Shown one piece after another: positions 1,709-62,225 of a stretch of DNA of 64,000 nucleotides (position 1 is the first letter of the stretch; every line of letters begins with the position of its first letter). The stretch comes from Felixounavirus LF82P5, in the sequence record OZ035800.1; one strand, given 5' to 3'. Both the position numbers and the translations under genes were made by a program. Below the pieces are notes generated by a model, which did not search any database, was not told where the DNA came from, and saw only the letters and a program-made list of their open reading frames with translations.

Positions 1709-2606
1709 ACTTACCTACTGACAGAGGTGCTTCAATCTTCCCTGCATGTTGGTAGTTGTTAATGCCACCAATAAAATCACTTGCAGTAAGATGTTTTAAG
1801 TCACTTAAAGTGTTAAGTGGTACACCAATCTCAAAAGTAGGTGCATGGAACTCTTCGTTGTTCATCAGTTCATAAACCTGCTTCATATGATTCTGATAAA
1901 TCTGAGTATCCCCAAAGACACCTATCAAGTATCGTGGAGTGTACCCAGTCATCTTACAAAGAACTTCCAGAATAAAACCATAAGACGCAATATTAAACGG
2001 AAGTCCTAAAAAGGTGTCTACAGAACGTTGATACCATTGTAAGTCAACTTCACCTTCGTTAGTGATATAAATCTGAAACAGAACATGACAAGGTGCTAAA
2101 GCCATCGAGTTGGCTGCAATATCTGCTGCATTCCAAGCATTAACAAGCATGTAACGGTCTGTGATATCACCTTTCATCTTCGTTACTAAGGTCTCTAACT
2201 GGTCTACAACACAACCATTATGACCTTCAAAGTTTCTCCACTGAACCCCGTAGATTCTCCCACCTGCATCCTCTAACCAGTCTTGCTCAGAAGAATAGTT
2301 AGAGCTTAACCAGCGTTTAAAGTCATCTGACCAGATAGTCCAGCGTTCTCCATCATTTTCACCCCAAGTGCGATAACGGAGTTCACCAAGTTTATTCTCA
2401 CCATTCAGGAACCATAAAGCTTCCCCAATAACTTGCCGTGTAAACACCTGTTTAGATGTTAAGAGTGGGAAACCAGTACGCATATCAAAACGAAACTGTG
2501 GTGGAGCAAATGCAGAGATAACATCTCCAGTTCGTGTAGTACGCAGTTCACCAACGGATAAAACATGGTTCAGGATATTTTTGTAACTTGAATCTGCTTG
2601 TGACAT
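1707..2606 (-). CDS. thyA: thymidylate synthase
   Basis: 299 aa; sequence resembles the ThyA family throughout; adjacent to DHFR as in the T4 td-frd pair. Confidence 0.85.
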   Translation of the reverse strand: MSQADSSYKNILNHVLSVGELRTTRTGDVISAFAPPQFRFDMRTGFPLLTSKQVFTRQVIGEALWFLNGENKLGELRYRTWGENDGERWTIWSDDFKRWLSSNYSSEQDWLEDAGGRIYGVQWRNFEGHNGCVVDQLETLVTKMKGDITDRYMLVNAWNAADIAANSMALAPCHVLFQIYITNEGEVDLQWYQRSVDTFLGLPFNIASYGFILEVLCKMTGYTPRYLIGVFGDTQIYQNHMKQVYELMNNEEFHAPTFEIGVPLNTLSDLKHLTASDFIGGINNYQHAGKIEAPLSVGK

Positions 2607-2607
2607 A

Positions 2608-3153
2608 TCAAAAGTGTCCTTTTACTTGTGGAACATAAATTTCAAAAGTTGCTTTACCATCCTCTGATGGTTTTGACTGTACCTTTGTAAATACACGGTT
2701 ATCATACAGCTTCTCAAAGAAGTTTTCAAAAGGTAAATGCACAGTAGCCTCTTCAGTAACTTTATGGAAGACTGTATGGAACACCACACCAGCATACGGT
2801 AAAGCATTGACAAGGACACCTGCACCACCAATTACAAAGACATCTTCATCAATAGAGCTATCAAGATACTTCAAAAATGCTCCAAAGGATTCTTTGCTGG
2901 CCTTAGCATACATTACACCATCTTTGCCAAAATCTATACCTAAGTATGGTACAGAATTTGTTAAGATTAGGTTTGCACGTTCTGGTAGAGGTTTACTACC
3001 CAGAGTCTTAAAAGTCTCATTACCCATGACTACTAAGTTATTTTTAGTGAGTCTCTTAAACTCTTGCATGTCCTGTTTATGTCGAGGCCACGGCATACCA
3101 GTCGGTGTACCAAATTCACCGTTTTCACCACTTGCAAATATTAGTTTAATCAT
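2608..3153 (-). CDS. folA: dihydrofolate reductase
   Basis: 181 aa; DHFR-like N-terminus (MIKLIFA...GxxGxMPW) and size; next to thyA. Confidence 0.8.
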   Translation of the reverse strand: MIKLIFASGENGEFGTPTGMPWPRHKQDMQEFKRLTKNNLVVMGNETFKTLGSKPLPERANLILTNSVPYLGIDFGKDGVMYAKASKESFGAFLKYLDSSIDEDVFVIGGAGVLVNALPYAGVVFHTVFHKVTEEATVHLPFENFFEKLYDNRVFTKVQSKPSEDGKATFEIYVPQVKGHF

Positions 3154-3410
3154 TTTGTAAACCCTTTCTTAATGAACCAGTTGATGACACTCTTCACAAC
3201 TTTACTACGATGGTAGATAAAATGTGGAGATGGTTGGTATGAACCATAAGCCCAGAAAGCGATAATTTCATTACACCCTGTGCATCGGGTACTTTCTTCA
3301 GCAATATGACCGTTGACTATTTCACTTACCTCACCTTGTAAGTCTGTACACCCGCAATGTGGACAACGGATAGGTGTTCCATCAGACTCATAGCAGTGTT
3401 CAATTTTCAT
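3150..3410 (-). CDS. zinc-ribbon protein
   Basis: 86 aa with CPHCGC...CTGC cysteine pairs; ATGA overlap with folA start. Confidence 0.45.
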   Translation of the reverse strand: MKIEHCYESDGTPIRCPHCGCTDLQGEVSEIVNGHIAEESTRCTGCNEIIAFWAYGSYQPSPHFIYHRSKVVKSVINWFIKKGFTK

Positions 3411-3926
3411 CTATTTAACCTCAAAAACTGGTTCAAGAACCAATATAAAGTCTACACAGTCATCTTCTTCATCCAGAATACCATCAAAGTTCTTAGGTAC
3501 AAAGTCGAAGAGGCTCATAGAATATCGGTCAGAAGTAACCCTGATAGTGTTCCCTATATTCTCTACAGTTAATATTGTACGGCTTTCTGTTACCTCACTT
3601 AGAAGATTACTCACAAAGTCATCTAAGAAGTGTTTCATCAGTGACTTGAAGCCTTTAGGGTAATCTGTACCAGAGTATGTTTCAATCTGAGGAACAAGCT
3701 TAACATTTATACTAGTCTTTGTTAAGAACGTTTTAGAGAACATGCTATCAGGTAGCTTACAAACAGTCTTTCCAGTACCTTCATGTTCAATCTCAACAAA
3801 ACCAGCTTCGTCGCCACATGTAACTATTTTAAAAGATGCTTCATTCTCATACTGTGAAGCCATAAACTTTTTAAGCATTTCTTTAAGGAAATCTGCATGA
3901 GCATCTTGTAAGTAGATATCAATCAT
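3411..3926 (-). CDS. hypothetical protein
   Basis: 171-aa ORF tightly packed in the minus-strand operon. Confidence 0.45.
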   Translation of the reverse strand: MIDIYLQDAHADFLKEMLKKFMASQYENEASFKIVTCGDEAGFVEIEHEGTGKTVCKLPDSMFSKTFLTKTSINVKLVPQIETYSGTDYPKGFKSLMKHFLDDFVSNLLSEVTESRTILTVENIGNTIRVTSDRYSMSLFDFVPKNFDGILDEEDDCVDFILVLEPVFEVK

Positions 3927-3939
3927 AGTTAATCACCTA

Positions 3940-4299
3940 TTATGGGAACAAGCACTTAATGTCATCGTTTTTGAAAACAAAACTTGTGTAGTTGTGGCCA
4001 TCAACATCCAACCAAACAGCCTGAACATCCACACCATCAAGATTGTGGTAAAGTTCTTTGATGAAGTGGTCTTTCACAATCTGGCTGCTAGTTGTTTCCA
4101 GCTTAATGTTCGAGATTGCTGAACCTACAGCCATATAGCCCATGACCCGTTTCTTCTCAGTATGCTTAATCTTACCATCTTTGTAAGCCATAATGAGATT
4201 GGAAAGAATTTTTACACCATAATACTTTTCAAGGTGAGTAGGTACACCATAAAAGCCTAATGCGAAGTTTTCAGAGTGGATAATGTTTTCACGTTTCAT
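3940..4299 (-). CDS. hypothetical protein
   Basis: 119-aa ORF, same orientation and packing as neighbours. Confidence 0.45.
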   Translation of the reverse strand: MKRENIIHSENFALGFYGVPTHLEKYYGVKILSNLIMAYKDGKIKHTEKKRVMGYMAVGSAISNIKLETTSSQIVKDHFIKELYHNLDGVDVQAVWLDVDGHNYTSFVFKNDDIKCLFP

Positions 4300-7178: not shown

Positions 7179-8282
7179 TTACTCATAATCCCTAATAACT
7201 AGCCCTACAGGAAACTGTAAAGAACCTTTACGAGTCATCTTCTGGAACTGAACAGTTAAAGGTTTCCCGATAAACTCTTCAGGATGTTCAGCAAGATACT
7301 GTTTCTTCTCGTGTGTAGTTTTCCATGAAACATCTACAAAGACGTTAGGAAGAGTCTCTACAACGAACTTACCATGACCACGCTTATCGGTCTTTACACC
7401 AGTCACTTTAAACTCTTCAGTGTGCATCTTCTTGTGCTTAATCAAGAAGTATGAACGGTGACAACACTCATAGAAGGAGTCTTCAGAGATTGAACGGTAC
7501 ATTGCACCTTCAAACTTAGCTTCAACCCACTTATCATGAGCTTCATCAAACTCTTCCCAAGAATTTACACGACGAGATTTAACAGGAACAACTTTACAGC
7601 CGTCTCTAAAGTCATTCAATGGTGAAGTCTCAATAATATCTCTACGCTCAGGCCACGTTTTAGTACTGTCACAGATATCATACCAGTAGAACTTAAGTAA
7701 GTGTCTGTCAGGATTGTCTTCATTTTTAATCATAGAGACAATATCTTCTAAGTCCCACCCATGAGCATAAATCTCACCATCAAATTCATCAACATCTTTA
7801 TGGAGCCTCAACATTGCCATAATGTCAGGTATTAGCTCAGTAGGAATTTTATAAATAGTGTTCTCACGAGAATATGCTGTAAATACACTGCCAATGCTTA
7901 AGTGTCTTGAAATTCTACAACGTACACCATCAAGCTTCGGTTGGGCATCAGCAGGGAATTTCAAATACTTTGCATGGCTAACCTTTGCAGTATCATGAGC
8001 AAGCTGTACACCTACCTTCTCAGTATTCTGTGCAGACTCTTTTGTGTAAGCATAACCTTTGCGGTCAACTTGCTTTTTATACTTAGCAGCAACTTCAAAG
8101 AGGGCTTGCTGTTCAGCATTACGCTCATTCTTTTTACCGATGTTTTTAGGTTCTGCTGTATACTCTTCAAACATCATCTTGCCATTTTCTTTACCGTAGG
8201 TTGTAATAACTTTGTCACCTACAGCAACACATGACCAGACGTTAAAAGAGCCGTCTTTATTTTGTTTGTACAGAATTGTCAT
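7179..8282 (-). CDS. ATP-dependent DNA ligase
   Basis: 367 aa; adenylation motif I KLDGVRC; size like T7-type ligases. Confidence 0.75.
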   Translation of the reverse strand: MTILYKQNKDGSFNVWSCVAVGDKVITTYGKENGKMMFEEYTAEPKNIGKKNERNAEQQALFEVAAKYKKQVDRKGYAYTKESAQNTEKVGVQLAHDTAKVSHAKYLKFPADAQPKLDGVRCRISRHLSIGSVFTAYSRENTIYKIPTELIPDIMAMLRLHKDVDEFDGEIYAHGWDLEDIVSMIKNEDNPDRHLLKFYWYDICDSTKTWPERRDIIETSPLNDFRDGCKVVPVKSRRVNSWEEFDEAHDKWVEAKFEGAMYRSISEDSFYECCHRSYFLIKHKKMHTEEFKVTGVKTDKRGHGKFVVETLPNVFVDVSWKTTHEKKQYLAEHPEEFIGKPLTVQFQKMTRKGSLQFPVGLVIRDYE

Positions 8283-8485
8283 TTTCTCTTACCACCAATC
8301 TCTACGTCGATAACTTGAACATCGCCAGCAACATCAAACTTATGTATGATGCTTTCCACAGTATAAGTCCAACCATCAATGCGAACCATCTCACCTTCTC
8401 GTGGAACTATTGGATTACGTTGAGCTACAGTTGTAGTGGAGTGAACAACATCATAACGATAGATATAGTTTACTAGGACTTCCAT
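8279..8485 (-). CDS. hypothetical protein
   Basis: Start moved to internal ATG with GAGG Shine-Dalgarno; stop abuts the ligase start. Confidence 0.4.
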   Translation of the reverse strand: MEVLVNYIYRYDVVHSTTTVAQRNPIVPREGEMVRIDGWTYTVESIIHKFDVAGDVQVIDVEIGGKRK

Positions 8486-8495
8486 CGTGAAAACC

Positions 8496-8756
8496 TCACT
8501 CAATAACCGTAGTATGTGATTGTCCATTTTTGCCATAGCTGTAAGATGTTGTTGTTTGAGAGTTTGGACATCTGACAACAACAATATCTCTGCTTATAGC
8601 ATCACCATGTAACTTGTATACTCTGCAATCTTGCATCTCTGGTGGGAGGCTATAAGAAGCATTTTTATCTTCATAAGAAGGGTTGCAGCCAGATAGAAAA
8701 ATAACACCAAGCGCAATTACCACTTTCCACATAACACTACTCCTATTACTGTTCAC
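8496..8756 (-). CDS. putative lipoprotein
   Basis: Signal sequence with lipobox VIFLSGC. Confidence 0.45.
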   Translation of the reverse strand: MNSNRSSVMWKVVIALGVIFLSGCNPSYEDKNASYSLPPEMQDCRVYKLHGDAISRDIVVVRCPNSQTTTSYSYGKNGQSHTTVIE

Positions 8757-25783: not shown

Positions 25784-26025
25784 TGACTTATGTAATTTAC
25801 TCCAAAACTGGATGCCCTCAGTGTGAGACTGCAAAGAATTTTGCAAAAGCTCGTGGTATTGACCATGTTGTGAGAATGTTAGGGCAGGACTATGAACTAT
25901 CAGACCTGATGGATATTGCACAGATGCCAGTGCGTCAGATGCCATTCATCATGAAAACTGATGGGCAAAACCTAAAGCCTGTTGGAACGCTACAGAATTT
26001 TATGGCAGAGGTGAATAATGCTTAA
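25783..26025 (+). CDS. nrdH: glutaredoxin-like protein (NrdH/NrdC-like)
   Basis: 80 aa with CPQC redox motif near the N-terminus; sits between nrdB and nrdD. Confidence 0.7.
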   Translation: MTYVIYSKTGCPQCETAKNFAKARGIDHVVRMLGQDYELSDLMDIAQMPVRQMPFIMKTDGQNLKPVGTLQNFMAEVNNA

Positions 26026-26224
26026 ACGCCTTTGGGAAGGTTTGGTTGTTGATGCACCAGCTATTGTGATTGGTATGCTTATTGTTAACCTATTTACTGA
26101 CTTTGAACAAGGTTCATTGTTTGGAGCTATGTTACTATGGGTTATCTTCGAAATATTAGAGATACAGTTAGGTATCACTGAAAAACTAAGAGAACTCTTT
26201 TCGAAGTTTTCTAAAAAGATTTAA
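26018..26224 (+). CDS. small membrane protein
   Basis: 68 aa with two hydrophobic segments. Confidence 0.35.
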   Translation: MLKRLWEGLVVDAPAIVIGMLIVNLFTDFEQGSLFGAMLLWVIFEILEIQLGITEKLRELFSKFSKKI

Positions 26225-28417: not shown

Positions 28418-28571
28418 AACTTGACATGGTGGTGTGAGTCTTGATAGGCTTACATCACCTTTTTTATTGGATGTTAGATATGGCAGAGAGTATTATTGGG
28501 TTGTTCATAGGTTCTGTCTTACTAGGGTTCTTTTTAGGACTCTCTTATTGTGAATTAAGAGGCAAGTTAAA

Positions 28572-28772
28572 ATGTTTAAAATATCAAAAGCGTTGATATA
28601 CATTCTCCACATTCTAATCTTCTTATTTGGGGTTAGTGTTATGGTATGGGGTTTTTCAGACCCACAATGGAGTTTCGCATATCAGGGTCAGATGGATTTA
28701 TGGTCATGCTTCAAACCATTTTTAGGGTTAGTCATAGCATTCAGTGCATTGCCAACTAAGGTGAAATTATGA
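28572..28772 (+). CDS. small membrane protein
   Basis: 66 aa with two predicted TM helices. Confidence 0.4.
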   Translation: MFKISKALIYILHILIFLFGVSVMVWGFSDPQWSFAYQGQMDLWSCFKPFLGLVIAFSALPTKVKL

Positions 28773-34252: not shown

Positions 34253-34588
34253 ATGAAAATCAAAGAGATGAACATCAACATTGTCTTAGAAGAACGTTGG
34301 GAGAACATCAAGAAGCCTGAAGATGGCCATAAGTTTCTTAACAAAATTTTAGTAGCAGCTAAAGAAGAACTGACTGGCAAGGTCGCAGCAGCAATTACAA
34401 TAAAGGTCTGTGTAAAAGGTCTTCCAGATAATCACCAATTTGCACTTGACGAGTTTAAAGAAAGCTTCTACAATCCAAACAAACAGATGCTTGAAAGTAA
34501 CTTTGCAGTATCTACAAGTATCGTCCATGACAGAAGCTTTATCCTTTACAAGAATATGAGAGGTGAGTCATGCAAGCATATTGGATAG
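34253..34588 (+). CDS. hypothetical protein
   Basis: 111-aa ORF. Confidence 0.45.
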   Translation: MKIKEMNINIVLEERWENIKKPEDGHKFLNKILVAAKEELTGKVAAAITIKVCVKGLPDNHQFALDEFKESFYNPNKQMLESNFAVSTSIVHDRSFILYKNMRGESCKHIG

Positions 34589-34746
34589 AAATTTTACTGT
34601 CACTTGGTGGCGTAGCAGTGTTTGTTTACCTTCTTTGTAAGTACTATGCAGAGCACAAAAAATGTGACTACTGTAATGGGGAAGGTTATACAAGAGCAGG
34701 TTGTTGCCCTATGTGTGGTGGTTCTGGTAAAATGTTTAACAAGTAA
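34570..34746 (+). CDS. small membrane-anchored zinc-ribbon protein
   Basis: 58-codon ORF (below track cutoff): hydrophobic helix then CDYCNGEGY...CPMCGGSG. Confidence 0.3.
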   Translation: MQAYWIEILLSLGGVAVFVYLLCKYYAEHKKCDYCNGEGYTRAGCCPMCGGSGKMFNK

Positions 34747-38330: not shown

Positions 38331-38345
38331 TAAGTAATTTCTTAA

Positions 38346-38368
38346 AAGGCTGCTTCGGCGGCCTTTTT
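38346..38368 (+). terminator. rho-independent terminator
   Basis: GGCTGC-TTCG-GCGGCC hairpin followed by TTTTTT. Confidence 0.55.
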
Positions 38369-38430: not shown

Positions 38431-38979
38431 ATGAAGAAATTGATTCTAGGTTTGTGCTTAATGTTTACAGCACACTTATCTTATGCAGTTGACTGCCCAG
38501 AGCTATCAATTAGCCAAAAAGTGAACATGTTAAAAGCTTACCAGTATGGTGAGAATAACATGGGTAAAGGTTGGGGTATCACTCTAGCAGCTATAGCCTT
38601 ACAAGAGTCAGAGTTAGGTCTGAAGGTAGAAAATAAAAAGACCCATGACTATGGTATCTTCCAGAATCACTTGAAGACTGTTGTAAAGCGTAACAAAATT
38701 AGTCCTAATGTTGCTAAAAAGAAACTCTTAAAAGACTTTGACTATGCTGCGAAGGAAACTCACAAAGAGCTTGAGTTTTGGACAAAGGTGCATGGTCAGC
38801 CAAAGTCAAAGAAGACTTTACAAAAAGTTTTAGCATCATATAATGCTGGGTATTCGTACAGAATCCCTAAAGCTAAGAAATATTCTCAAGATGTCTATAA
38901 CAACATGAAAGTTATTGCTCAATGTGAATTTGCAACAAACATTTCTAAGGTAAACCATGAAAAAATTAAAAAAGTCTGA
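38431..38979 (+). CDS. secreted lytic transglycosylase-like protein
   Basis: Signal peptide MKKLILGLCLMFTAHLSYA; SLT-like catalytic segment ALQESELG...YGIFQN. Confidence 0.5.
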   Translation: MKKLILGLCLMFTAHLSYAVDCPELSISQKVNMLKAYQYGENNMGKGWGITLAAIALQESELGLKVENKKTHDYGIFQNHLKTVVKRNKISPNVAKKKLLKDFDYAAKETHKELEFWTKVHGQPKSKKTLQKVLASYNAGYSYRIPKAKKYSQDVYNNMKVIAQCEFATNISKVNHEKIKKV

Positions 38980-39652
38980 TGAAGTACTGTGTCATGCTTA
39001 CGACTTACATCCTCATGAGTTAGGTCTTGATTCCTGTGTATGGACTCCAGAACAGTGTAGGGATTTTGAAGACACTGCAAGAGAAGTTGTATGTTCACTC
39101 GAAGAGTTCCACACATCAGAACCAATTGTGAATGTTGTAGATAAAGAGACTGGACAAACTATAGGTGTAAGTCGTGATAGCTTAGTCATAGTCAATAAAG
39201 ACCTTGTAGAAAAAGGGAATCTCATCTTAGCAGATATTGATGGTGTTCTTACAAATTTTAATCACGAAGATTGTTCAACGGAATTGACTGACGGTTCATT
39301 CTCGCAGTACACTAATCTTCTTGACTCTGTAAGAGCAAAACCAACGTATGTTTTCAATATCATTGATGCAATTGCTAATCATGCTGCTGTTGGACTCTTG
39401 ACAGCGAGAGGTGAATCTCAGAGAATACCTACTGAGATGTTTTTAAGGCATAACACAGAGCATGACTACATGCTTTTTATGCGTGGTTTTGGGACTAACT
39501 CTATAAGCGCAGAAAGTTTGAAAGTGAGGATGATTCAGTCTTGCATTCTGCCTTACTTTAATATAGTATGTTTTATAGAAGACACAGAGAAGAATGTGCA
39601 GAAGGTGAACAGAATCCTTCCACACATTAAAACCATGTTAGTTAAACATTGA
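38957..39652 (+). CDS. HAD-superfamily phosphatase (5'-nucleotidase-like)
   Basis: HAD motif I LILADIDGVLTNF (DxDGxL). Confidence 0.4.
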   Translation: MKKLKKSDEVLCHAYDLHPHELGLDSCVWTPEQCRDFEDTAREVVCSLEEFHTSEPIVNVVDKETGQTIGVSRDSLVIVNKDLVEKGNLILADIDGVLTNFNHEDCSTELTDGSFSQYTNLLDSVRAKPTYVFNIIDAIANHAAVGLLTARGESQRIPTEMFLRHNTEHDYMLFMRGFGTNSISAESLKVRMIQSCILPYFNIVCFIEDTEKNVQKVNRILPHIKTMLVKH

Positions 39653-39662
39653 GAGAAAACTT

Positions 39663-40127
39663 ATGAACAATATCATTACGGTAGCACTGGACGATACGGT
39701 AAACAAATCTGCAATAGTTCGTAAAATGATTCAAGGTAACTTTGAAGGTAAAATTTTTCGTGCTGTTAATGTAAAAGCTGATGGCAGCATTCGTGAATAT
39801 CGTGCATTATTGAATGTTAAAAAACACGTAAAAGGTGCTGGTTCAACTACTGCACACAAAGAAAACCTGATGACTATCTATGATATGGGCAAGGCTTCAG
39901 AGTTAGGTGCTGAAGGTATCGTTAAAGAAGGTGCTCCGTATCGCTCTTTCAATCTGGAAACTACTCTTATGCTTTCCTTTACAAGTGGTTCTAAAACAAT
40001 CACTTATCTCTTTACTGATGCTGCAACGGTATCTGCTATTAAGGATAGCACTGTCAAAGCTGGCGTAGTTGCTGCTGCAAAAGCTTCTTCGATGGCTGCG
40101 AATATCCTTGCTAAAGTCCTCGGTTAA
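39663..40127 (+). CDS. hypothetical protein
   Basis: 154-aa Ala/Lys-rich ORF followed by a terminator. Confidence 0.45.
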   Translation: MNNIITVALDDTVNKSAIVRKMIQGNFEGKIFRAVNVKADGSIREYRALLNVKKHVKGAGSTTAHKENLMTIYDMGKASELGAEGIVKEGAPYRSFNLETTLMLSFTSGSKTITYLFTDAATVSAIKDSTVKAGVVAAAKASSMAANILAKVLG

Positions 40128-40138
40128 GGTTAAGATAC

Positions 40139-40160
40139 AGGCTCCTTCGGGAGCCTTTTT
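40139..40160 (+). terminator. rho-independent terminator
   Basis: AGGCTCC-TTCG-GGAGCCT hairpin followed by TTTTT. Confidence 0.65.
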
Positions 40161-40179
40161 CATTTTAGGAGATTGTTAA

Positions 40180-40527
40180 ATGACATTTAAAGAGTTCTGT
40201 CAAGCTACTTTCATAATTGTTTTCTTAGTTGGTGCAGGTGTCTGGGGAGGATACTCTTACAGAGACTATCAAGTTGCTGAAACTGAGCTAAATAATGAGA
40301 AACTAATAAGTGTTGCTAAAGATGCTTATCAGGAAGGTTTAGCCACACTCAGCACCAATTACAAAAATGATTTGAAAGATGTGCTTGCTAAGAATAAGCA
40401 TACAAAAGAGGTACTAACATATGAAAAAACTAAGCCAGAGTTTTATAATGTTTGTGTTACTGATAACTATGTCAGGGTGTTCAACGAACAAAGTGAGCAG
40501 TACATTCAAAAACTCCCAAGTAAGTGA
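40180..40527 (+). CDS. i-spanin-like protein
   Basis: 115 aa: N-terminal TM helix then charged periplasmic-type region; a lipoprotein ORF overlaps its 3' end in another frame. Confidence 0.35.
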   Translation: MTFKEFCQATFIIVFLVGAGVWGGYSYRDYQVAETELNNEKLISVAKDAYQEGLATLSTNYKNDLKDVLAKNKHTKEVLTYEKTKPEFYNVCVTDNYVRVFNEQSEQYIQKLPSK

Positions 40528-40690
40528 GGGTGATAAGTACACCCAAGAAGAATCACGGTATATCATCAAAGGCAACACAGGCAGCGATGTAGCAGCAGCC
40601 CTTGAGTTCTATCGTGACGGCTTTTACCAGTGCACAATCAAAGCTAACAACCTTATTGACATGATTTTATTAGGGAATAAGCAGCAATGA
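40421..40690 (+). CDS. o-spanin-like lipoprotein
   Basis: Signal plus lipobox LLITMSGC; ATG with AGAGG Shine-Dalgarno; overlaps 40180..40527 by about 107 nt. Confidence 0.35.
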   Translation: MKKLSQSFIMFVLLITMSGCSTNKVSSTFKNSQVSEGDKYTQEESRYIIKGNTGSDVAAALEFYRDGFYQCTIKANNLIDMILLGNKQQ

Positions 40691-40956
40691 CAGAGAATCA
40701 AGATACTTTTTACGTAGAAGGGTACTTACTGTTACCACGACCAAAAGAGACTTATATGCGAATTGATTTCTCACCAACCATTATGGATAATGTGATGTGC
40801 CATATCTTTATGCAAGGTGTCACAGCACAGCTTAAACATGTTGGTAAAGAGTGCAAAATAAAGGTTGACACTCATCCAGAAATCAAAGAGAATCACTACA
40901 CATGGTTCTTACCAGATTCTAAAGAAATCTTAGCAGTTCTTAAAACGAGGAAGTAA
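40687..40956 (+). CDS. hypothetical protein
   Basis: 89-aa ORF. Confidence 0.4.
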   Translation: MTENQDTFYVEGYLLLPRPKETYMRIDFSPTIMDNVMCHIFMQGVTAQLKHVGKECKIKVDTHPEIKENHYTWFLPDSKEILAVLKTRK

Positions 40957-40958
40957 CT

Positions 40959-41285
40959 ATGCAGATTAATGGAAGAGACTTTGTAGCCGTTTACTATGAG
41001 AAAGGTAAAGAAGTTGGCGTAGCACAAGTATCTTACGGCAATGGTAAGTGGCTATATGGAACAATCGCAGTAGTAGGAACAAGAAGTGATACAAAAACCT
41101 TTAAAGATTGTGTTGACCTTCTTGAAGAATCCATCCAGAATCATTGGTGTCTGATATGGATGACTGATAACGAAGTGATGGAGCGTTTCAAAAAGATTGA
41201 TATCAACATTGACAGTATTGAGCATGTTGATTTATATGAACTAACTGAGAAGGTAAACTATGAAAGTAATACTAGCCAGAGATAA
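40959..41285 (+). CDS. hypothetical protein
   Basis: 108-aa ORF. Confidence 0.4.
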   Translation: MQINGRDFVAVYYEKGKEVGVAQVSYGNGKWLYGTIAVVGTRSDTKTFKDCVDLLEESIQNHWCLIWMTDNEVMERFKKIDINIDSIEHVDLYELTEKVNYESNTSQR

Positions 41286-41487
41286 AAAGACACGAAAACT
41301 TATAAGGTCAGCAGTATTCATTGGACGAAATGAGGTCATCCCATTTACAGCAAATGATGTGATAGCTTACAGGAAGAACTTAGTATTCACTGACTGCTTA
41401 CGTGGCTTCATCTCTGAACCATTGGAAGACTTTAAAAGTCGTTGTGGTAAAGGTATCATCATTCAAGAGGCAATTATTCATGGCTGA
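41260..41487 (+). CDS. hypothetical protein
   Basis: 75-aa ORF. Confidence 0.35.
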   Translation: MKVILARDKKTRKLIRSAVFIGRNEVIPFTANDVIAYRKNLVFTDCLRGFISEPLEDFKSRCGKGIIIQEAIIHG

Positions 41488-41680: not shown

Positions 41681-42466
41681 ATGGGTATTGTAAAAATCAT
41701 CAATGGTGATATCTTTGCTGCATTTGATAAAGGTAAGTTTGACATCATTGGTCATGGTTGTAACTGCATGAACCTAATGGGCGCAGGTATCGCTGACAAG
41801 ATTTCTAAACTTTACCCAAAAGCATATGAGACCGATACAGAAGTTTATCTCTATGCAGGTGGTATAGGTCACAAACCCTGTGAGAATTTACTAGGTAATT
41901 TCTCTGTAGCACGCTTAAAACAAGGTCGTATAGCTAACCTTTACACTCAGCTTAAGACTGGTAAAGATGCCCGATACAGTGCTTTAGAGTCATCTTTGAA
42001 ACAGCTTAACAGATACTGTGAAGTTAATCAGTTGAAGAAAGTTGGTTTACCTATGATTGGTGCAGGTATCGGTGGACTTGACCCTCAAGCCATCACAGTT
42101 ATCATCAATCAGGTGATGAAGAGTGTAGATGTTTATCTGTATGTCTATGAAGGCGAGATGTACCACAAGTTACGCTCAGGTTGGAAGAACTACTGTGAAC
42201 CAGAATACTTTGCAGGTGTAGCAGTGTTCACAGATAACGCAGTTACCCTCTTCAGACGAAGAAAAGGTAAGATACATCAAAGTAACCCTCCGGTTGAAAA
42301 GATGTCTCTAAGTAACGCTCTAGTTACCCACCTGTCAAAGAGCAATCACAGAATTGCTGTAACATTTGGTAGTGATGCAGAAGCTTATATCTATGCAAGA
42401 ACTGATGAGGATATCGAGGCAATCTTCTCTTCACCAGAAGTTACCTTCTTAGACGCAAAGAACTAA
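41681..42466 (+). CDS. macro-domain protein (putative ADP-ribose-binding/hydrolase)
   Basis: N-terminal GDI...DII.HGCNCMNLMGAGIA and GLPMIGAGIGGL resemble macro-domain signatures (GDIT...VNAAN.LLGGGGV; FPAISTGVYG). Confidence 0.45.
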   Translation: MGIVKIINGDIFAAFDKGKFDIIGHGCNCMNLMGAGIADKISKLYPKAYETDTEVYLYAGGIGHKPCENLLGNFSVARLKQGRIANLYTQLKTGKDARYSALESSLKQLNRYCEVNQLKKVGLPMIGAGIGGLDPQAITVIINQVMKSVDVYLYVYEGEMYHKLRSGWKNYCEPEYFAGVAVFTDNAVTLFRRRKGKIHQSNPPVEKMSLSNALVTHLSKSNHRIAVTFGSDAEAYIYARTDEDIEAIFSSPEVTFLDAKN

Positions 42467-42539
42467 GAAACTCTGTAGGATATTCACAATAGCCTAAGCC
42501 TTTCTTATCTGGTAAATTTTTCAGGTAAGGAGGGCTTTT

Positions 42540-49600: not shown

Positions 49601-50134
49601 CTATAATTGTAGGTTGCATTCTTTACTTACCTCTTCAAGTTTAACCTCAGAATCCTTAAGTCGTTTCTTATAAACTCTGAACCTCATTAGTGAGATGATG
49701 ATACCAGCTAAAGGAACAACATACAAGTACCAGACATCATGCAACTTTGCAGTAATCTGTGTAATGGTCAAGTCTTGAGCTATACAACTGATTGCTGATA
49801 CTACCAGTAACATTGCTAAGAAGAACGCCAATACCATAACAATACTTAGGCATCCTCTGGCATGGTGTTCATGCTTAATACACTTGTTCTTTTCATCAAC
49901 AACCATGTTGTAGTCGTTTGTAAAGTCTCTGTAGAAAGCTTTCAAGTATTCTTGACTGTAGCCCTCAAAGCAACCTGTACCGTACCAATAATCACCACCA
50001 AAATGTGCTATGATACCGGTATCTCCATTCGGTTTGGTTACTCTAAGAGAAGTATGATGACCAGTCTTCTGGTAATCTATTTTGTATCTTTCTTCGTAAA
50101 TCATTTCCCAACCCCTCTCAATCGTTTGTTCCAC
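49601..50134 (-). CDS. membrane protein of unknown function
   Basis: 177 aa with two hydrophobic helices in the C-terminal half. Confidence 0.45.
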   Translation of the reverse strand: MEQTIERGWEMIYEERYKIDYQKTGHHTSLRVTKPNGDTGIIAHFGGDYWYGTGCFEGYSQEYLKAFYRDFTNDYNMVVDEKNKCIKHEHHARGCLSIVMVLAFFLAMLLVVSAISCIAQDLTITQITAKLHDVWYLYVVPLAGIIISLMRFRVYKKRLKDSEVKLEEVSKECNLQL

Positions 50135-52976: not shown

Positions 52977-53441
52977 TTACTTTGGGTATACACTGTCAAG
53001 ATAAATGTCAGCTTCCATTCTACGTCTGTTTTTCAGGCCGTTTGAAGTGACCTTCTTACCTTTGACTGTAACCTTGTTCCACCACTGCATAGCTTCTGCA
53101 CAACCGACCTTATTACCAGCATTGTGGCGCTTGATAAATGTGGAATCCTGCATAGCTGTGATACCGATGTTGTATGTTTCACTTACAAGTGCATCAAACT
53201 CGTTCTGAGAAGTTGGAACCTTGATGGCTTTATTCACTGCTGCAACGAATTTTTCAACATCTGCAAGAAGATACTGTTCAGCTTGTTCAGCAGTAATTTT
53301 CATACCCATCTTAACAGGTTTTCCGTCAATACGGATTGTTCCATAACCGATTGTTGGGATTCCGGCAGAGTCTTCGTAAGCCTCTAACTTCAGACCTTCA
53401 AAGAACTTAATAGCCTCTAAACCTTTTCTTGAGAGTTGCAT
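52977..53441 (-). CDS. endolysin, T4-lysozyme-like (GH24)
   Basis: 154 aa; GLKLEAYEDSAGIPTIGYG contains the Glu-8 aa-Asp-5 aa-Thr catalytic arrangement of T4 lysozyme. Confidence 0.7.
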   Translation of the reverse strand: MQLSRKGLEAIKFFEGLKLEAYEDSAGIPTIGYGTIRIDGKPVKMGMKITAEQAEQYLLADVEKFVAAVNKAIKVPTSQNEFDALVSETYNIGITAMQDSTFIKRHNAGNKVGCAEAMQWWNKVTVKGKKVTSNGLKNRRRMEADIYLDSVYPK

Positions 53442-54574
53442 TATGCCTCCCCTGCTGGATTAACTGTAACTGTTGCTGCGTTAGATGTTACAGAGCCACC
53501 TGCACCAGTAACTACACAGGTGTAGCTTCCTGAATCAGCAGCGGTTGCACCTTCTTTGGTGTAAGTTGCAGTAGTTGCATCGAGGATGTCTTCCTCACCT
53601 TTCTTCCACTGGTAACTTGTTGCACCTGTTGCCACAACATTCAGCGTTAAGGTATCACCTTCAGTGATTCCTTGATTGGTTGGCTGTTGAGTGATTACTG
53701 GAAGTGCGTTCACAGTTACTACAGCAGCATTAGATTCCACTGCACCACCTGCACCTGTTACAACGCAAGTGTATGAACCTGCATCTGCTGGCAGAGCACC
53801 AGACTTGCTATAGGTGGCATCTGTAGCCGAAGGAATGTCAGAGCCATCTTTCTTCCACTGATAACCTGTTGCACCTGTTGCAGTCACTTCCAAGTTGATG
53901 TTTCCACCCTCATTGATAGTCTGGCTAGAAGGTTGTTGTGTAATCACAGGTAGTGCGTTCACAGTCACTGTTGCTGCATCTGAGGTAACACTTGTTCCAC
54001 CCTCTCCAGATACAACACAAGTATAAGAACCAGCATCAGAAGGTGCTACAGACTGTTTTGTGTAGGTTGCAGATGTGGCGCTAGTGATATCCTCACCATC
54101 CTTTTTCCATTGATATCCAGTGGCATTAGTTGCAATAATGCTTAGGGTAAGTGTACCACCTTCATTTACTGTTTGATTGGTTGGTTGCTGAGTAATTGAT
54201 GGTGGCTTGATAGCGTCCTTCAACTTAGCATTCAACATTGAGAATGGTTTAACTCTTGCCAGCCATTCACAATAAACTGTATCAACGTCTTTACCATTGA
54301 TAATTGCATATTGTAAGTCCATGAAGAAGTCAGAAGTTCTCATTTGAGCACCAACGCTATAAAGCAACTCATCACTAAATGGAACTTTGTAGTCTGGTTT
54401 GTAGTCAAACTTCTCAACTTCTGCGATATCAGCTTCAGGCCAATATGAGCTATAGGTGAGTGGTAAAATAGCCTCTTGATATGTTCTAAAATCATATCTC
54501 TTACCAGCCTTTACATTTGCAATGAAGCCCTTCACAAACTCTTTGAAGTCTGGGTAAGTCTTTGCTTTAATCAT
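53441..54574 (-). CDS. protein with three tandem Ig-like domains
   Basis: N-terminal roughly 130-aa domain plus three repeats of about 80 aa (ITQQP...YQWKKDG...AGSYTCVV...VTVN). Confidence 0.55.
   Translation of the reverse strand: MIKAKTYPDFKEFVKGFIANVKAGKRYDFRTYQEAILPLTYSSYWPEADIAEVEKFDYKPDYKVPFSDELLYSVGAQMRTSDFFMDLQYAIINGKDVDTVYCEWLARVKPFSMLNAKLKDAIKPPSITQQPTNQTVNEGGTLTLSIIATNATGYQWKKDGEDITSATSATYTKQSVAPSDAGSYTCVVSGEGGTSVTSDAATVTVNALPVITQQPSSQTINEGGNINLEVTATGATGYQWKKDGSDIPSATDATYSKSGALPADAGSYTCVVTGAGGAVESNAAVVTVNALPVITQQPTNQGITEGDTLTLNVVATGATSYQWKKGEEDILDATTATYTKEGATAADSGSYTCVVTGAGGSVTSNAATVTVNPAGEA
53460..54200. repeat. tandem DNA repeats (three units of about 250 bp) encoding the Ig-like domains
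   Basis: Repeated blocks on the plus strand such as CACCTGCACCAGTAACTACACAGGTGTAGCTTCCTG / CACCTGCACCTGTTACAACGCAAGTGTATGAACCTG. Confidence 0.5.
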
Positions 54575-54942
54575 TTCTTTTTAGCCTCTAAATGTGCGTT
54601 TAGTCTAAAATAACCTTTGTGATGCGGAGATACATCACCAACAACAATACCTTTAACCTTATAACCTTTACCAATTACATACTGGATATCCATAAGGAAT
54701 CTTCCAAGACCAACAATATGGAACATTGGATATAATAGATTCTCAGAATCTGGAATATTGATTTCAGGTTTGTAGGTACGCTGTTCGCTTGTTGGTGTAA
54801 TATCTTCTTCAGGCCACTTACTGAGTCTCCATGTCAAAGGTGTTGGGATAACATCATTAAGGTTGTACCTTTCACCATTTTGCACGGAATTGATATAGGA
54901 TTGTAGGAAGCAATAAAAGTCTTTTGCACTCTTAGCTTTCAT
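54571..54942 (-). CDS. paralogue of the N-terminal domain of 53441..54574
   Basis: MKAKSAKDFYCFLQSYINSVQNGERY... aligns with MIKAKTYPDFKEFVKGFIANVKAGKRY...; shared ...FLMDIQYVI motif. Confidence 0.45.
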   Translation of the reverse strand: MKAKSAKDFYCFLQSYINSVQNGERYNLNDVIPTPLTWRLSKWPEEDITPTSEQRTYKPEINIPDSENLLYPMFHIVGLGRFLMDIQYVIGKGYKVKGIVVGDVSPHHKGYFRLNAHLEAKKK

Positions 54943-61667: not shown

Positions 61668-62225
61668 ATGAGATATTTGAAGTATGCTTCATGGATTTTC
61701 TTAGCTTTGTTAGAGCCATTTGCAGCAATCTTAGCAGTTATCTTAGCACCTTTCGTAGTTCCATTCTACAGTGAGAAGAAAGGACATCTCCCTTTTGGAT
61801 TCAGATGGATGGAGACATATGACAACCAAATTGATGGTGATAAAGGTCATGTCGAACGATGGGCTAAGATTAGAAAGATTGGTAAGCTTGGTGTCTATAT
61901 GCAGAGAGTTGGTTGGCTCTGGAGAAACAAAGCTTATAACTTCTCTTACCATGTGTTAGGAAGAGATGTAAAAGATGTTACTAAGTGGAAAGGCAATATC
62001 AATGTAAGTTCTAACCCTGAAGATAATCAGACAGGTTATCTCCTAATGTGGAACAGTAATGCTTGGGGATTATTCGCTTTTGTACCATCAATTAAAATCT
62101 TTGGTAAACAATTCTACTGGAGAATTTATGTTGGGTGGAAACTTAAAAGTGTTGTCCCAGAAGAAAGGGCATTCTCAAGGGAAAGAGTTATGTTGGCATT
62201 CTTTATTCATCCACTAAGAAAATAA
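61668..62225 (+). CDS. membrane protein of unknown function embedded in the tRNA array
   Basis: 185 aa with AGAGG Shine-Dalgarno; hydrophobic N-terminus (WIFLALLEPFAAILAVILAPFVVPF). Confidence 0.5.
   Translation: MRYLKYASWIFLALLEPFAAILAVILAPFVVPFYSEKKGHLPFGFRWMETYDNQIDGDKGHVERWAKIRKIGKLGVYMQRVGWLWRNKAYNFSYHVLGRDVKDVTKWKGNINVSSNPEDNQTGYLLMWNSNAWGLFAFVPSIKIFGKQFYWRIYVGWKLKSVVPEERAFSRERVMLAFFIHPLRK

What the first reader, a model, noticed from the sequence alone, without database searches (positions are those of the whole stretch)
40180..40690. Overlapping spanin-like gene pair located far from the endolysin
40180..40527 encodes a protein with an N-terminal TM helix and a charged coiled-coil-like region; 40421..40690 starts inside it in another frame and encodes a lipoprotein (lipobox LITMSGC). 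This is the classic overlapped i-spanin/o-spanin layout, but the endolysin is about 12 kb away on the other strand and the lipoprotein is not proline-rich.
Basis: partly seen in the sequence, partly recalled or inferred. Interest (0 to 1): 0.4.

Follow-up and report, generated by a model that had tools for sequence, protein, structure and literature searches.

The report
Known Felix O1 overlapping spanin genes
These two overlapping genes are the already catalogued spanin pair of Felix O1-like phages, the proteins thought to break the host outer membrane at the end of infection, and their position far from the cell-wall-degrading enzyme is normal for this phage group.

Summary
ORF 40180..40527 (115 aa, N-terminal membrane helix) and ORF 40421..40690 (89 aa, lipobox TMSG|C) overlap by 107 nt, with the second in the +1 frame. 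The window is a Felixounavirus genome. The two proteins each differ by 2 residues from Felix O1 p014 and p015. Kongari et al. 2018 (SpaninDB) list those as an overlapped i-spanin/o-spanin pair with the same 107-nt overlap. Several GenBank records carry the same annotation. Genome announcements state that Felix O1-like lysis genes are scattered, not grouped in a cassette.

My own tests support a real gene pair:
- All 30 related loci keep both ORFs at identical lengths.
- The o-spanin frame shows a clear coding signature.
- Distant homologues of both proteins travel together in four other phage groups.
- In three siphophage genera the pair sits directly after the endolysin; holin genes are annotated beside it in two (9NA, Solent).

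A lipobox alone is no more frequent here than in shuffled sequence. The mature o-spanin contains no proline at all, and the i-spanin has no predicted coiled coil. The function is inferred; I found no test of it for this family. Verdict: already known, low interest.

The parts
40139..40156 (+). Terminator-like GC hairpin (AGGCTCCTTCGGGAGCCT) followed by a T-run. It ends the upstream block (SLT-like protein, polynucleotide kinase, hypothetical protein) 24 nt before the i-spanin ATG.
   Evidence: Pattern scan. A terminator is annotated at the same place in phage Michonne and in ASO1A/B.
40167..40171 (+). Shine-Dalgarno AGGAG, 8 nt upstream of the i-spanin ATG.
   Evidence: Sequence. SpaninDB lists the same SD for Felix O1 p014.
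40180..40527 (+). i-spanin gene, 115 aa. Residues 1-27 hold the short cytoplasmic end and the transmembrane helix (40180..40260). Residues 28-115 form the periplasmic, mostly helical domain (40261..40524). The invariant periplasmic Cys92 codon is at 40453..40455.
   Evidence: ORF. phrog_1152 Rz-like spanin 8e-42. TM segment. Two residues differ from Felix O1 p014. Intact at 115 aa in 30/30 relatives. The conserved motif EK..F.N.C....Y....NE is shared with Kolesnikvirus, Kuravirus and 9NA.
40408..40412 (+). Shine-Dalgarno GAGGT, 8 nt upstream of the o-spanin ATG, inside the i-spanin coding sequence.
   Evidence: Sequence. Same SD in SpaninDB for Felix O1 p015. An RBS is annotated at the equivalent place in Michonne.
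40421..40690 (+). o-spanin gene, 89 aa. The lipoprotein signal peptide is residues 1-19 (40421..40477). The lipobox is TMSG|C, with the acylated Cys20 codon at 40478..40480 and Ser at +2. The mature protein is 70 aa, has no proline, and carries the invariant Cys71 (40631..40633).
   Evidence: ORF. phrog_4180 1e-49, phrog_2425 3.9e-9, and a weak hit to phrog_456 Rz-like spanin at 2e-3. Lipobox rule. Two residues differ from Felix O1 p015. Third-codon-position variation and synonymous:nonsynonymous 401:149 in frame, against 44:481 and 51:474 off frame. Invariant C20, T22, G54, D66, C71, N76, L78 across four phage groups.
40421..40527 (+). Dual-coding overlap of 107 nt. It encodes the conserved C-terminal motif of the i-spanin (residues 81-115) in one frame. 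In the +1 frame it encodes the signal peptide, lipobox and linker of the o-spanin (residues 1-36).
   Evidence: Fewer variable columns than in the flanks (26/104, against 95/241 and 69/160), spread evenly over codon positions. SpaninDB gives the same 107-nt overlap for Felix O1 and wV8.
40687..40690 (+). ATGA junction. The o-spanin stop overlaps the start of the next gene, 40687..40956 (phrog_4391, unknown function).
52977..53441 (-). Endolysin of the T4-lysozyme type, 154 aa. This is the distant functional partner that must degrade the peptidoglycan before the spanins can act.
   Evidence: Pfam PF00959 6.6e-41. phrog_7 endolysin 4.4e-58.

Best explanation
The region is the two-component spanin locus of a Felix O1-like myophage (genus Felixounavirus), orthologous to Felix O1 p014 and p015.

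Shown here:
- Two real, co-conserved, overlapping genes.
- The first encodes a protein with an N-terminal membrane anchor and a helical, charged C-terminal domain.
- The second encodes a lipoprotein precursor with a signal-peptidase-II site and Ser at +2.

Inferred from the lambda Rz/Rz1 and T4 PseT.3/PseT.2 paradigms:
- The first protein sits in the inner membrane as a type II protein, N-in and C-out.
- The second is acylated at Cys20 and sorted by Lol to the inner leaflet of the outer membrane.
- Their C-terminal regions bind each other through the peptidoglycan mesh, forming a bridge across the periplasm.
- The one invariant periplasmic cysteine in each (Cys92, Cys71) probably makes homodimer disulfide bonds.
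- The complexes stay inactive while the wall is intact. Once the endolysin (52977..53441, minus strand) has destroyed the peptidoglycan, they are free to move and fuse the inner and outer membranes, which completes lysis.

Because the wall itself restrains the complex, the spanin genes need not be linked to or co-regulated with the endolysin. This is consistent with their place in a separate block next to rIIA/rIIB and polynucleotide kinase.
For: Identity:
- The window is 100% identical to Felixounavirus LF82P5 over 39600..41300, and 257 phage records match.
- The proteins differ from the SpaninDB entries Felix01 p014 and p015 at 2 positions each. SD sequences, lipobox (TMSG), class 'ovl' and the 107-nt overlap are the same.
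- The pair is annotated i-spanin/o-spanin in ekra, VSe102, allfine, Michonne, JohannRWettstein and others.

Both are real genes:
- 30/30 related loci, down to 76% DNA identity, keep 115-aa and 89-aa ORFs.
- In the o-only part, 46/54 third positions vary, against 15/53 and 8/53 for first and second positions. Synonymous:nonsynonymous is 401:149 in frame and 44:481 or 51:474 off frame.
- Both have strong SD sequences.

Defining features: a TM helix, a lipobox with Ser at +2, and one invariant periplasmic Cys in each protein.

Family and context:
- phrog_1152 'Rz-like spanin' 8e-42.
- Homologues of both proteins occur together, overlapped, in Kolesnikvirus, Kuravirus, Nonanavirus, Sashavirus and Gorganvirus.
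- In 9NA and Solent the pair directly follows annotated holin and endolysin genes. In Proteus phage 2207-N35 it directly follows the annotated endolysin.

Scattered lysis genes are reported for Felix O1-like phages (PMC4319497; PMC6486253).
Against: - I found no experiment on any member of this sequence family: no complementation, localisation or deletion. The function therefore rests on architecture and context.
- No Pfam or NCBIfam spanin model matches. There is no detectable sequence similarity to T4 PseT.3/PseT.2.
- Pepcoil predicts no coiled coil in the Felix O1 i-spanin.
- The mature o-spanin has no proline. Both features are prominent in the lambda model of membrane fusion.
- A terminator-like hairpin lies 24 nt upstream, and the 24 nt between it and the ATG leave no room for a sigma-70 promoter (the promoter-like sites nearest upstream begin at 39649 and 39700). 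How and when the pair is transcribed is unknown.
- The lipobox pattern alone is at the chance level for this window.
Confidence: 0.88

Rival explanations
1. The pair does disrupt the outer membrane, but by a mechanism that differs from the lambda Rz/Rz1 coiled-coil and proline-rich fusion model. One example would be a small folded o-spanin domain and a short helical i-spanin that destabilise the outer membrane without hairpin-type fusion.
For: There are zero prolines in the mature o-spanin of all 31 sequences (window plus 30 loci). Pepcoil predicts no coiled coil for the Felix O1 i-spanin, while Jpred gives 66% helix for the i-spanin and 20% helix plus 16% strand for the o-spanin. There is no sequence relation to the lambda or T4 families. 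Both proteins have conserved C-terminal motifs, each with a single invariant Cys.
Against: The total periplasmic length of 158 residues (SpaninDB) is in the range of other two-component spanins. T4-type o-spanins also lack a proline-rich region and still complement lambda (Kongari 2018). Failure of one coiled-coil predictor is weak evidence.
Confidence: 0.08
2. The membrane protein and the lipoprotein are not lysis proteins. They would be an envelope-modifying pair, for example for superinfection exclusion or receptor masking, as with the T5 Llp lipoprotein. That would be consistent with their place among early-type genes (rII, polynucleotide kinase, macro-domain protein).
For: The neighbours are not lysis genes, and a terminator separates the pair from the upstream block. 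No experiment ties the pair to lysis. Phage lipoproteins with exclusion roles exist (own knowledge).
Against: Homologous pairs lie immediately after the endolysin gene in three other phage genera, with annotated holins in two of them. The overlapped layout of a type II membrane protein with an outer-membrane lipoprotein is the signature used to define spanins (Kongari 2018). The T4 spanins also sit next to pseT, outside any cassette. No other spanin candidate turned up in the window. The only other lipobox ORF, 8496..8732 (-), has no adjacent ORF with an N-terminal transmembrane segment.
Confidence: 0.03
3. The second ORF (40421..40690) is a chance open frame with a fortuitous lipobox, and only the first ORF is a gene.
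For: Lipobox-rule ORFs arise as often in shuffled sequence (2.3 +/- 1.4) as in the window (2). Many GenBank records call it hypothetical or omit it.
Against: It is intact at 89 aa in 30/30 loci. It has a strong in-frame coding signature and its own SD. tblastn finds homologues in 399 phage records, down to 28% identity, with the lipobox Cys and a second Cys invariant.
Confidence: 0.01

Closest known systems
Felix O1 p014/p015 (SpaninDB family 'JH2'; Kongari et al. 2018, PMC6139136)
   Same: Orthologues. Lengths are 115 aa and 89 aa, with 2 substitutions each. SD sequences, lipobox TMSG|C, the 107-nt overlap, the +1 frame, and one periplasmic Cys in each protein are all the same.
   Different: Nothing of substance. 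The window comes from an E. coli-infecting relative (LF82P5-like) and not from Felix O1 itself.
Lambda Rz/Rz1 (prototype two-component spanin)
   Same: A type II inner-membrane protein plus an outer-membrane lipoprotein, encoded in different frames of shared DNA. Both have periplasmic cysteines, and the presumed role is the last step of lysis.
   Different: The architecture is overlapped here, whereas Rz1 is fully embedded in Rz. There is no sequence similarity (no Pfam hit). The o-spanin is 70 aa with no proline, against 40 aa with a penta-proline stretch. No coiled coil is predicted. The pair is not in a holin-endolysin cassette.
T4 PseT.3/PseT.2
   Same: The sizes are similar (117 and 99 aa). 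The o-spanin has no proline-rich region. The pair lies outside a lysis cassette; that T4 e and t also lie far from it is my own knowledge. It lies next to a polynucleotide kinase gene (compared with 38957..39652 here).
   Different: There is no detectable homology: BLASTP E=0.04 confined to the signal peptide, E=18 for the i-spanins, and different PHROGs. The T4 genes are classed as separated in SpaninDB, although the RefSeq coordinates show a 4-nt junction overlap. T4 has 0 + 2 periplasmic Cys, against 1 + 1 here. The gene order relative to the kinase differs.
Spanin pairs of 9NA / Solent / Proteus phage 2207-N35 and of Kuravirus (phiEco32, Paul) and Kolesnikvirus (Fifi318)
   Same: These are distant homologues of both proteins (22-36% identity; phrog_1152 plus phrog_2425/4180). 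They have the same overlapped layout, the same invariant Cys residues and the same C-terminal motifs.
   Different: In the three siphophages the pair directly follows the endolysin, with annotated holins in 9NA and Solent. These relatives have 2-4 prolines in the linker, against none here.
Bcep781-like phages
   Same: [quoted passage not shown]
   Different: The phages, hosts and sequences are unrelated. This is a parallel in layout only.

Membership tests
Two-component spanin (functional class as defined by Summer 2007 / Kongari 2018) | The i-spanin is a small protein with a single N-terminal transmembrane domain (type II, N-in/C-out) and a periplasmic C-terminal domain. | tested here: met
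   One hydrophobic segment at about residues 6-24, and no other. SpaninDB/TMHMM places the periplasmic domain from R28 in the Felix O1 orthologue. The topology itself is predicted, not measured.
Two-component spanin (functional class as defined by Summer 2007 / Kongari 2018) | The periplasmic domain of the i-spanin is predominantly alpha-helical, usually with coiled-coil propensity. | tested here: inconclusive
   For the near-identical Felix O1 protein, Jpred gives 58/88 residues helical, but Pepcoil predicts 0 coiled coils (Kongari Tables S2 and S3). I ran no coiled-coil predictor myself.
Two-component spanin (functional class as defined by Summer 2007 / Kongari 2018) | The o-spanin is a lipoprotein precursor with a lipobox and SPII site, and no Asp at +2, so it sorts to the outer membrane. 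| tested here: met
   MKKLSQSFIMFVLLITMSG|CST fits the PS51257-like rule, with Ser at +2. SGC is invariant in 30 relatives, and the Cys is invariant in distant homologues. Lipidation and localisation are not testable here.
Two-component spanin (functional class as defined by Summer 2007 / Kongari 2018) | The o-spanin gene is embedded in, overlapping, or immediately following the i-spanin gene on the same strand. | tested here: met
   107-nt overlap in the +1 frame, conserved in 30/30 loci and in the distant homologues.
Two-component spanin (functional class as defined by Summer 2007 / Kongari 2018) | At least one periplasmic cysteine in the complex, for intermolecular disulfide bonds (507 of 528 systems). 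| tested here: met
   i-spanin Cys92 and o-spanin Cys71 are invariant across five phage groups. Disulfide formation itself was not tested.
Two-component spanin (functional class as defined by Summer 2007 / Kongari 2018) | Required for outer-membrane disruption; complements lambda Rz/Rz1 defects; the two subunits bind through their C-termini. | not testable with these tools
   I found no experiment for this family in the literature searches.
Felix O1 p014/p015 spanin family (SpaninDB 'JH2'; PHROG 1152 + 4180) | Sequence membership over the full length. | tested here: met
   113/115 and 87/89 residues identical to the SpaninDB entries. phrog_1152 8e-42 over residues 1-115, and phrog_4180 1e-49 over residues 1-88.
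Lambda Rz / Rz1 sequence families (Pfam Phage_lysis, Rz1) | Sequence homology to Rz and Rz1, and a proline-rich region in the o-spanin. | tested here: not met
   No Pfam family at E<=0.01 for either protein. 0 Pro in the mature o-spanin.
T4 PseT.3 / PseT.2 family (PHROG 739 / 812) | Sequence homology; two conserved C-terminal Cys in the o-spanin and none in the i-spanin. | tested here: not met
   BLASTP E=18 for the i-spanins. For the o-spanins E=0.04, confined to the signal peptide. The PHROGs differ. The Cys pattern is 1 + 1.

The most novel reading that the evidence does not exclude
The Felix O1-type spanin family has a proline-free, partly folded o-spanin, an i-spanin with no predicted coiled coil, and a 1 + 1 pattern of invariant cysteines. 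It might disrupt the outer membrane by a mechanism that does not need the coiled-coil and proline-rich elements thought central to lambda Rz/Rz1 fusion. That would make it a natural minimal model for what a spanin really requires.
Probability: 0.08. Interest if true: 0.4.

Novelty: already known. Interest (0 to 1): 0.08.

Why it matters
It matters little as a discovery. The pair has been in the curated spanin database since 2018 and is annotated in many Felixounavirus genomes. The scattered layout of lysis genes is a published trait of the group.

The practical value is for annotation:
- Both genes are present and intact in every relative examined. Published statements that some Felixounavirus phages have only an i-spanin or only an o-spanin (PMC8300805; PMC9951933) are therefore more likely gene-calling artefacts than biology. 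I did not inspect those two genomes.
- Several GenBank o-spanin entries start at an internal ATG, which removes the signal peptide.

A smaller scientific point is that this family is untested experimentally. Its o-spanin has no proline, so it could serve as a contrast case for spanin mechanism studies.

Tried and rejected
1. I tested whether a lipobox is statistically unusual in this window. It is not: 2 observed against 2.3 +/- 1.4 in shuffles. I dropped it as stand-alone evidence.
2. I tested homology to T4 PseT.3/PseT.2, because both pairs lie next to a polynucleotide kinase gene. I found none, so the shared neighbourhood stays an unexplained parallel.
3. Pfam and NCBIfam gave no spanin model hits. 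The NCBIfam hits are far below cut-off and cover only the lipoprotein signal peptide.
4. I looked for a promoter in front of the pair. The 24 nt between the terminator-like hairpin and the ATG leave no room for one.
5. I looked for a holin next to the spanins or the endolysin. None of the neighbouring ORFs has a transmembrane segment. The small membrane ORFs elsewhere in the window fall in PHROGs of unknown function or 'membrane protein'. This agrees with reports that the Felix O1 holin is unidentified.
6. I tried to confirm the upstream SLT-like protein by structure. The single-sequence AlphaFold model had pLDDT 52, too poor for a fold search, so I ran none. A sequence search of PDB chains found nothing.
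7. I did not run the large protein-database searches or a deep-alignment structure prediction of the spanins. The identity of the genes was already settled, and the cost was not justified.
8. The literature search for 'LysO1' returned only unrelated papers.

Full report
**What is in the sequence.**
- 40180..40527 (+) encodes a 115-aa protein.
- 40421..40690 (+) encodes an 89-aa protein.
- The second starts inside the first in the +1 frame. They share 107 nt.
- Each has a good Shine-Dalgarno sequence 8 nt before its ATG: AGGAG at 40167..40171 and GAGGT at 40408..40412 (sequence).
- The first protein has a single hydrophobic segment near residues 6-24, followed by an 88-residue tail that is 31% charged.
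- The second begins MKKLSQSFIMFVLLITMSG|CST. That is a lipoprotein signal peptide fitting a PROSITE-like lipobox rule, with Ser after the Cys.
- The T4-lysozyme-type endolysin is at 52977..53441 on the minus strand (Pfam PF00959, E=6.6e-41; phrog_7). It lies 12,287 nt away.

**Is it more than chance?** The lipobox alone is not. Scanning every start codon in all six frames finds two lipobox ORFs in the window. Dinucleotide-preserving shuffles give 2.3 +/- 1.4. The evidence that the second ORF is a gene comes from comparison.

I collected 30 related loci, 29 from IMG/VR plus Citrobacter phage Michonne, reaching down to 76% DNA identity.
- All 30 keep ATG-initiated ORFs of exactly 115 and 89 codons.
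- In the part read only in the o-spanin frame, 46 of 54 third codon positions vary, against 15/53 first and 8/53 second positions.
- Substitutions relative to the window are 401 synonymous to 149 non-synonymous in frame. Off frame they are 44:481 and 51:474.
- The i-only part behaves the same way in its own frame (362:175).
- In the 107-nt overlap, fewer columns vary (26/104, against 95/241 and 69/160), and the variation is spread evenly over codon positions. This is what selection on two frames at once predicts.

**What it is.** The window is a Felixounavirus genome. It is 100% identical to Felixounavirus LF82P5 over 39600..41300, and 257 phage records match.

The curated spanin database of Kongari et al. 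2018 (PMC6139136, Table S1) lists Felix O1 p014 as an overlapped i-spanin of 115 aa and p015 as an overlapped o-spanin of 89 aa. It gives the same SD sequences, lipobox TMSG, one periplasmic cysteine each, and family 'JH2'. Table S4 gives a 107-nt overlap for Felix O1 and wV8. The window proteins differ from those entries at two positions each: E40Q and A55V in the i-spanin, S26N and G37S in the o-spanin.

The same genes are annotated i-spanin/o-spanin in phages ekra, VSe102, allfine, JohannRWettstein, Michonne and others. PHROGs puts the first protein in phrog_1152 'Rz-like spanin' (8e-42). It puts the second in phrog_4180 (1e-49), with weaker matches to phrog_2425 and to phrog_456 'Rz-like spanin'.

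**Distance from the endolysin.** This is a published property of the group. [quoted passage not shown] The Meda announcement says the same and adds that no holin could be identified (PMC6486253). The UAB_Phi87 paper makes the same point about the holin (PMC4837284). [quoted passage not shown] In T4 the spanins pseT.3 and pseT.2 sit next to pseT. By my own knowledge of the T4 map, that is far from e and t.

**Context evidence for the function.** tblastn with the o-spanin finds homologues in 399 phage records, 142 of them below 60% identity. In every distant case I opened, the homologue overlaps the 3' end of a phrog_1152 i-spanin homologue. These were Kolesnikvirus Fifi318, Kuravirus Paul, Nonanavirus 9NA, Sashavirus Solent and Gorganvirus 2207-N35. 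The two proteins are thus inherited as a module across myo-, podo- and siphophages.

In 9NA and Solent the module lies directly after annotated holin, endolysin and a small membrane protein (second holin or antiholin). In 2207-N35 it lies directly after the annotated endolysin and two unannotated small genes. This ties the family to lysis by position.

Alignments show the following invariant residues.
- o-spanin: Cys20 (the lipid-attachment site), T22, G54, D66, Cys71, N76 and L78.
- i-spanin: E82, K83, F88, N90, Cys92, Y97, N102 and E103.

Each subunit therefore has a conserved C-terminal motif with one invariant periplasmic cysteine. The overlap region encodes the most conserved part of the i-spanin in one frame. 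In the other frame it encodes the sequence-tolerant signal peptide and linker of the o-spanin.

**How it most likely works.** This part is inferred from the lambda and T4 paradigms, as summarised in Kongari 2018 and from my own knowledge of the work of Berry, Rajaure and Young.
1. The i-spanin is anchored in the inner membrane.
2. The o-spanin is lipidated and sent to the outer membrane, because it lacks Asp at +2.
3. The two bind by their C-terminal regions and form disulfide-linked dimers threaded through the peptidoglycan.
4. The intact wall restrains the complex until the endolysin removes it. The membranes are then fused.

Because the wall restrains the complex, spanins can be made at any time and from any place in the genome. 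This is consistent with the unlinked position. None of these steps has been tested for this family. My searches found no experiment.

**Departures from the textbook pair.**
- No Pfam or NCBIfam spanin model matches.
- There is no detectable similarity to T4 PseT.3/PseT.2.
- Pepcoil predicts no coiled coil in the Felix O1 i-spanin, although Jpred% of its periplasmic domain helical.
- The mature o-spanin has no proline in any of the 31 sequences (window plus 30 loci).
- O-spanins without a proline-rich region are already described for the T4 family. This is therefore a variation within the known range, though an extreme one.
- A terminator-like hairpin at 40139..40156 sits 24 nt before the i-spanin ATG, leaving no room for a promoter in between. 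Transcription timing is unknown.

**Rivals.**
- A chance ORF is excluded.
- A non-lysis envelope role, such as exclusion, cannot be formally excluded without experiments. It is disfavoured by the cassette context of the homologues.
- A mechanistically divergent spanin is the most novel reading left open. I give it about 8%.

**Verdict.** The feature is already known and catalogued, so interest is low. The only added value is for annotation. Both genes are always present in this lineage, so reports of phages with only one of them are more likely gene-calling artefacts, although I did not inspect those two genomes. Several database entries truncate the o-spanin signal peptide.

Noticed in passing
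window 38431..38979 (+): A 182-aa protein lies 1.2 kb upstream of the spanins on the same strand. It has a Sec-type signal peptide (MKKLILGLCLMFTAHLSYA|VD). It also has lytic-transglycosylase motifs visible by eye (QES, YGIFQ, SYNAGYSY). The Pfam SLT hit is just below cut-off (E=9e-4, 19.2 bits against 21.3 bits). The protein falls in phrog_600 (unknown function). It is called 'putative lysin' in ekra and 'lysozyme-like domain' in Michonne. A secreted muralytic candidate therefore lies close to the spanins, although the recognised endolysin is 12 kb away. The single-sequence AlphaFold model was too poor to use (pLDDT 52), and no PDB sequence matched.
   Followed up: partly
window 8496..8732 (-): This is the only other lipobox ORF in the window: MWKVVIALGVIFLSG|CNPS, 78 aa from the ATG at 8732, in phrog_902 (unknown function, 1.3e-16). 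It lies beside the 367-aa gene at 7179..8282. It overlaps the upstream extension of ORF 8279..8584, whose PHROG match starts only at residue 34. It is possibly an exclusion-type or other envelope lipoprotein. I saw no partner ORF with an N-terminal transmembrane segment next to it.
   Followed up: partly
window 38957..39652 and 41681..42466; L037 (T4) 2503..4282; L004 (Paul) 2266..3201: There are two neighbourhood parallels. The spanin pair lies two genes after a polynucleotide kinase here, and in T4 pseT.3/pseT.2 also lie next to pseT, yet the spanins are not homologous. Here the pair is followed within 1 kb by a macro-domain 'phosphatase'. In Kuravirus Paul the homologous pair is directly followed by an Appr-1-p (macro) protein, and in Fifi318 by the same 'phosphatase'. 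Whether these linkages mean anything is unknown.
   Followed up: partly
L001 (ekra) 3870..4091; L005 (Fifi318) 2603..2776; L003 (9NA) 2501..2746; L038 (2207-N35) 2501..2725: Public annotation of the o-spanin is inconsistent. In ekra and Fifi318 the CDS starts at an internal ATG, which removes the signal peptide (ekra begins MSGCS...). In 9NA and Proteus phage 2207-N35 the o-spanin ORF is not annotated at all. Many Felixounavirus records call it hypothetical. Two papers report phages with only one of the two spanins (PMC8300805, PMC9951933). That is unlikely to be real, given that 30/30 loci keep both ORFs intact.
   Followed up: yes
window 26018..26224, 28441..28596, 28572..28772, 34570..34746 (+); 49601..50134 (-); 61668..62225 (+): These are small or medium ORFs with strong transmembrane segments. 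Their PHROGs are of unknown function or 'membrane protein'. None is annotated as a holin, and none lies next to the endolysin or the spanins. The holin of Felix O1-like phages is reported as unidentified, so these are the candidates in this window.
   Followed up: partly
window 53441..54574 (-) and 54571..54942 (-): The gene next to the endolysin encodes a 377-aa protein with three Ig-like domains (Pfam Ig_3 1.3e-33; PHROG 'tail protein' and Hoc-like). Its first ~120 residues are homologous to the whole 123-aa product of the neighbouring gene: both match phrog_4463 and the N-terminus of phrog_3995. That suggests a local duplication of that domain, with a 4-nt start/stop overlap between the two genes.
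   Followed up: no
window 38344..38367, 40139..40156, 42496..42537 (+): Three terminator-like hairpins cut the plus-strand region after rIIB into two short blocks. The first holds the SLT-like protein, the kinase and a hypothetical protein. The second holds the spanins and six small genes ending with the macro-domain protein. The scan found 4 sites in the region, against 1.8 +/- 1.4 expected.
   Followed up: no
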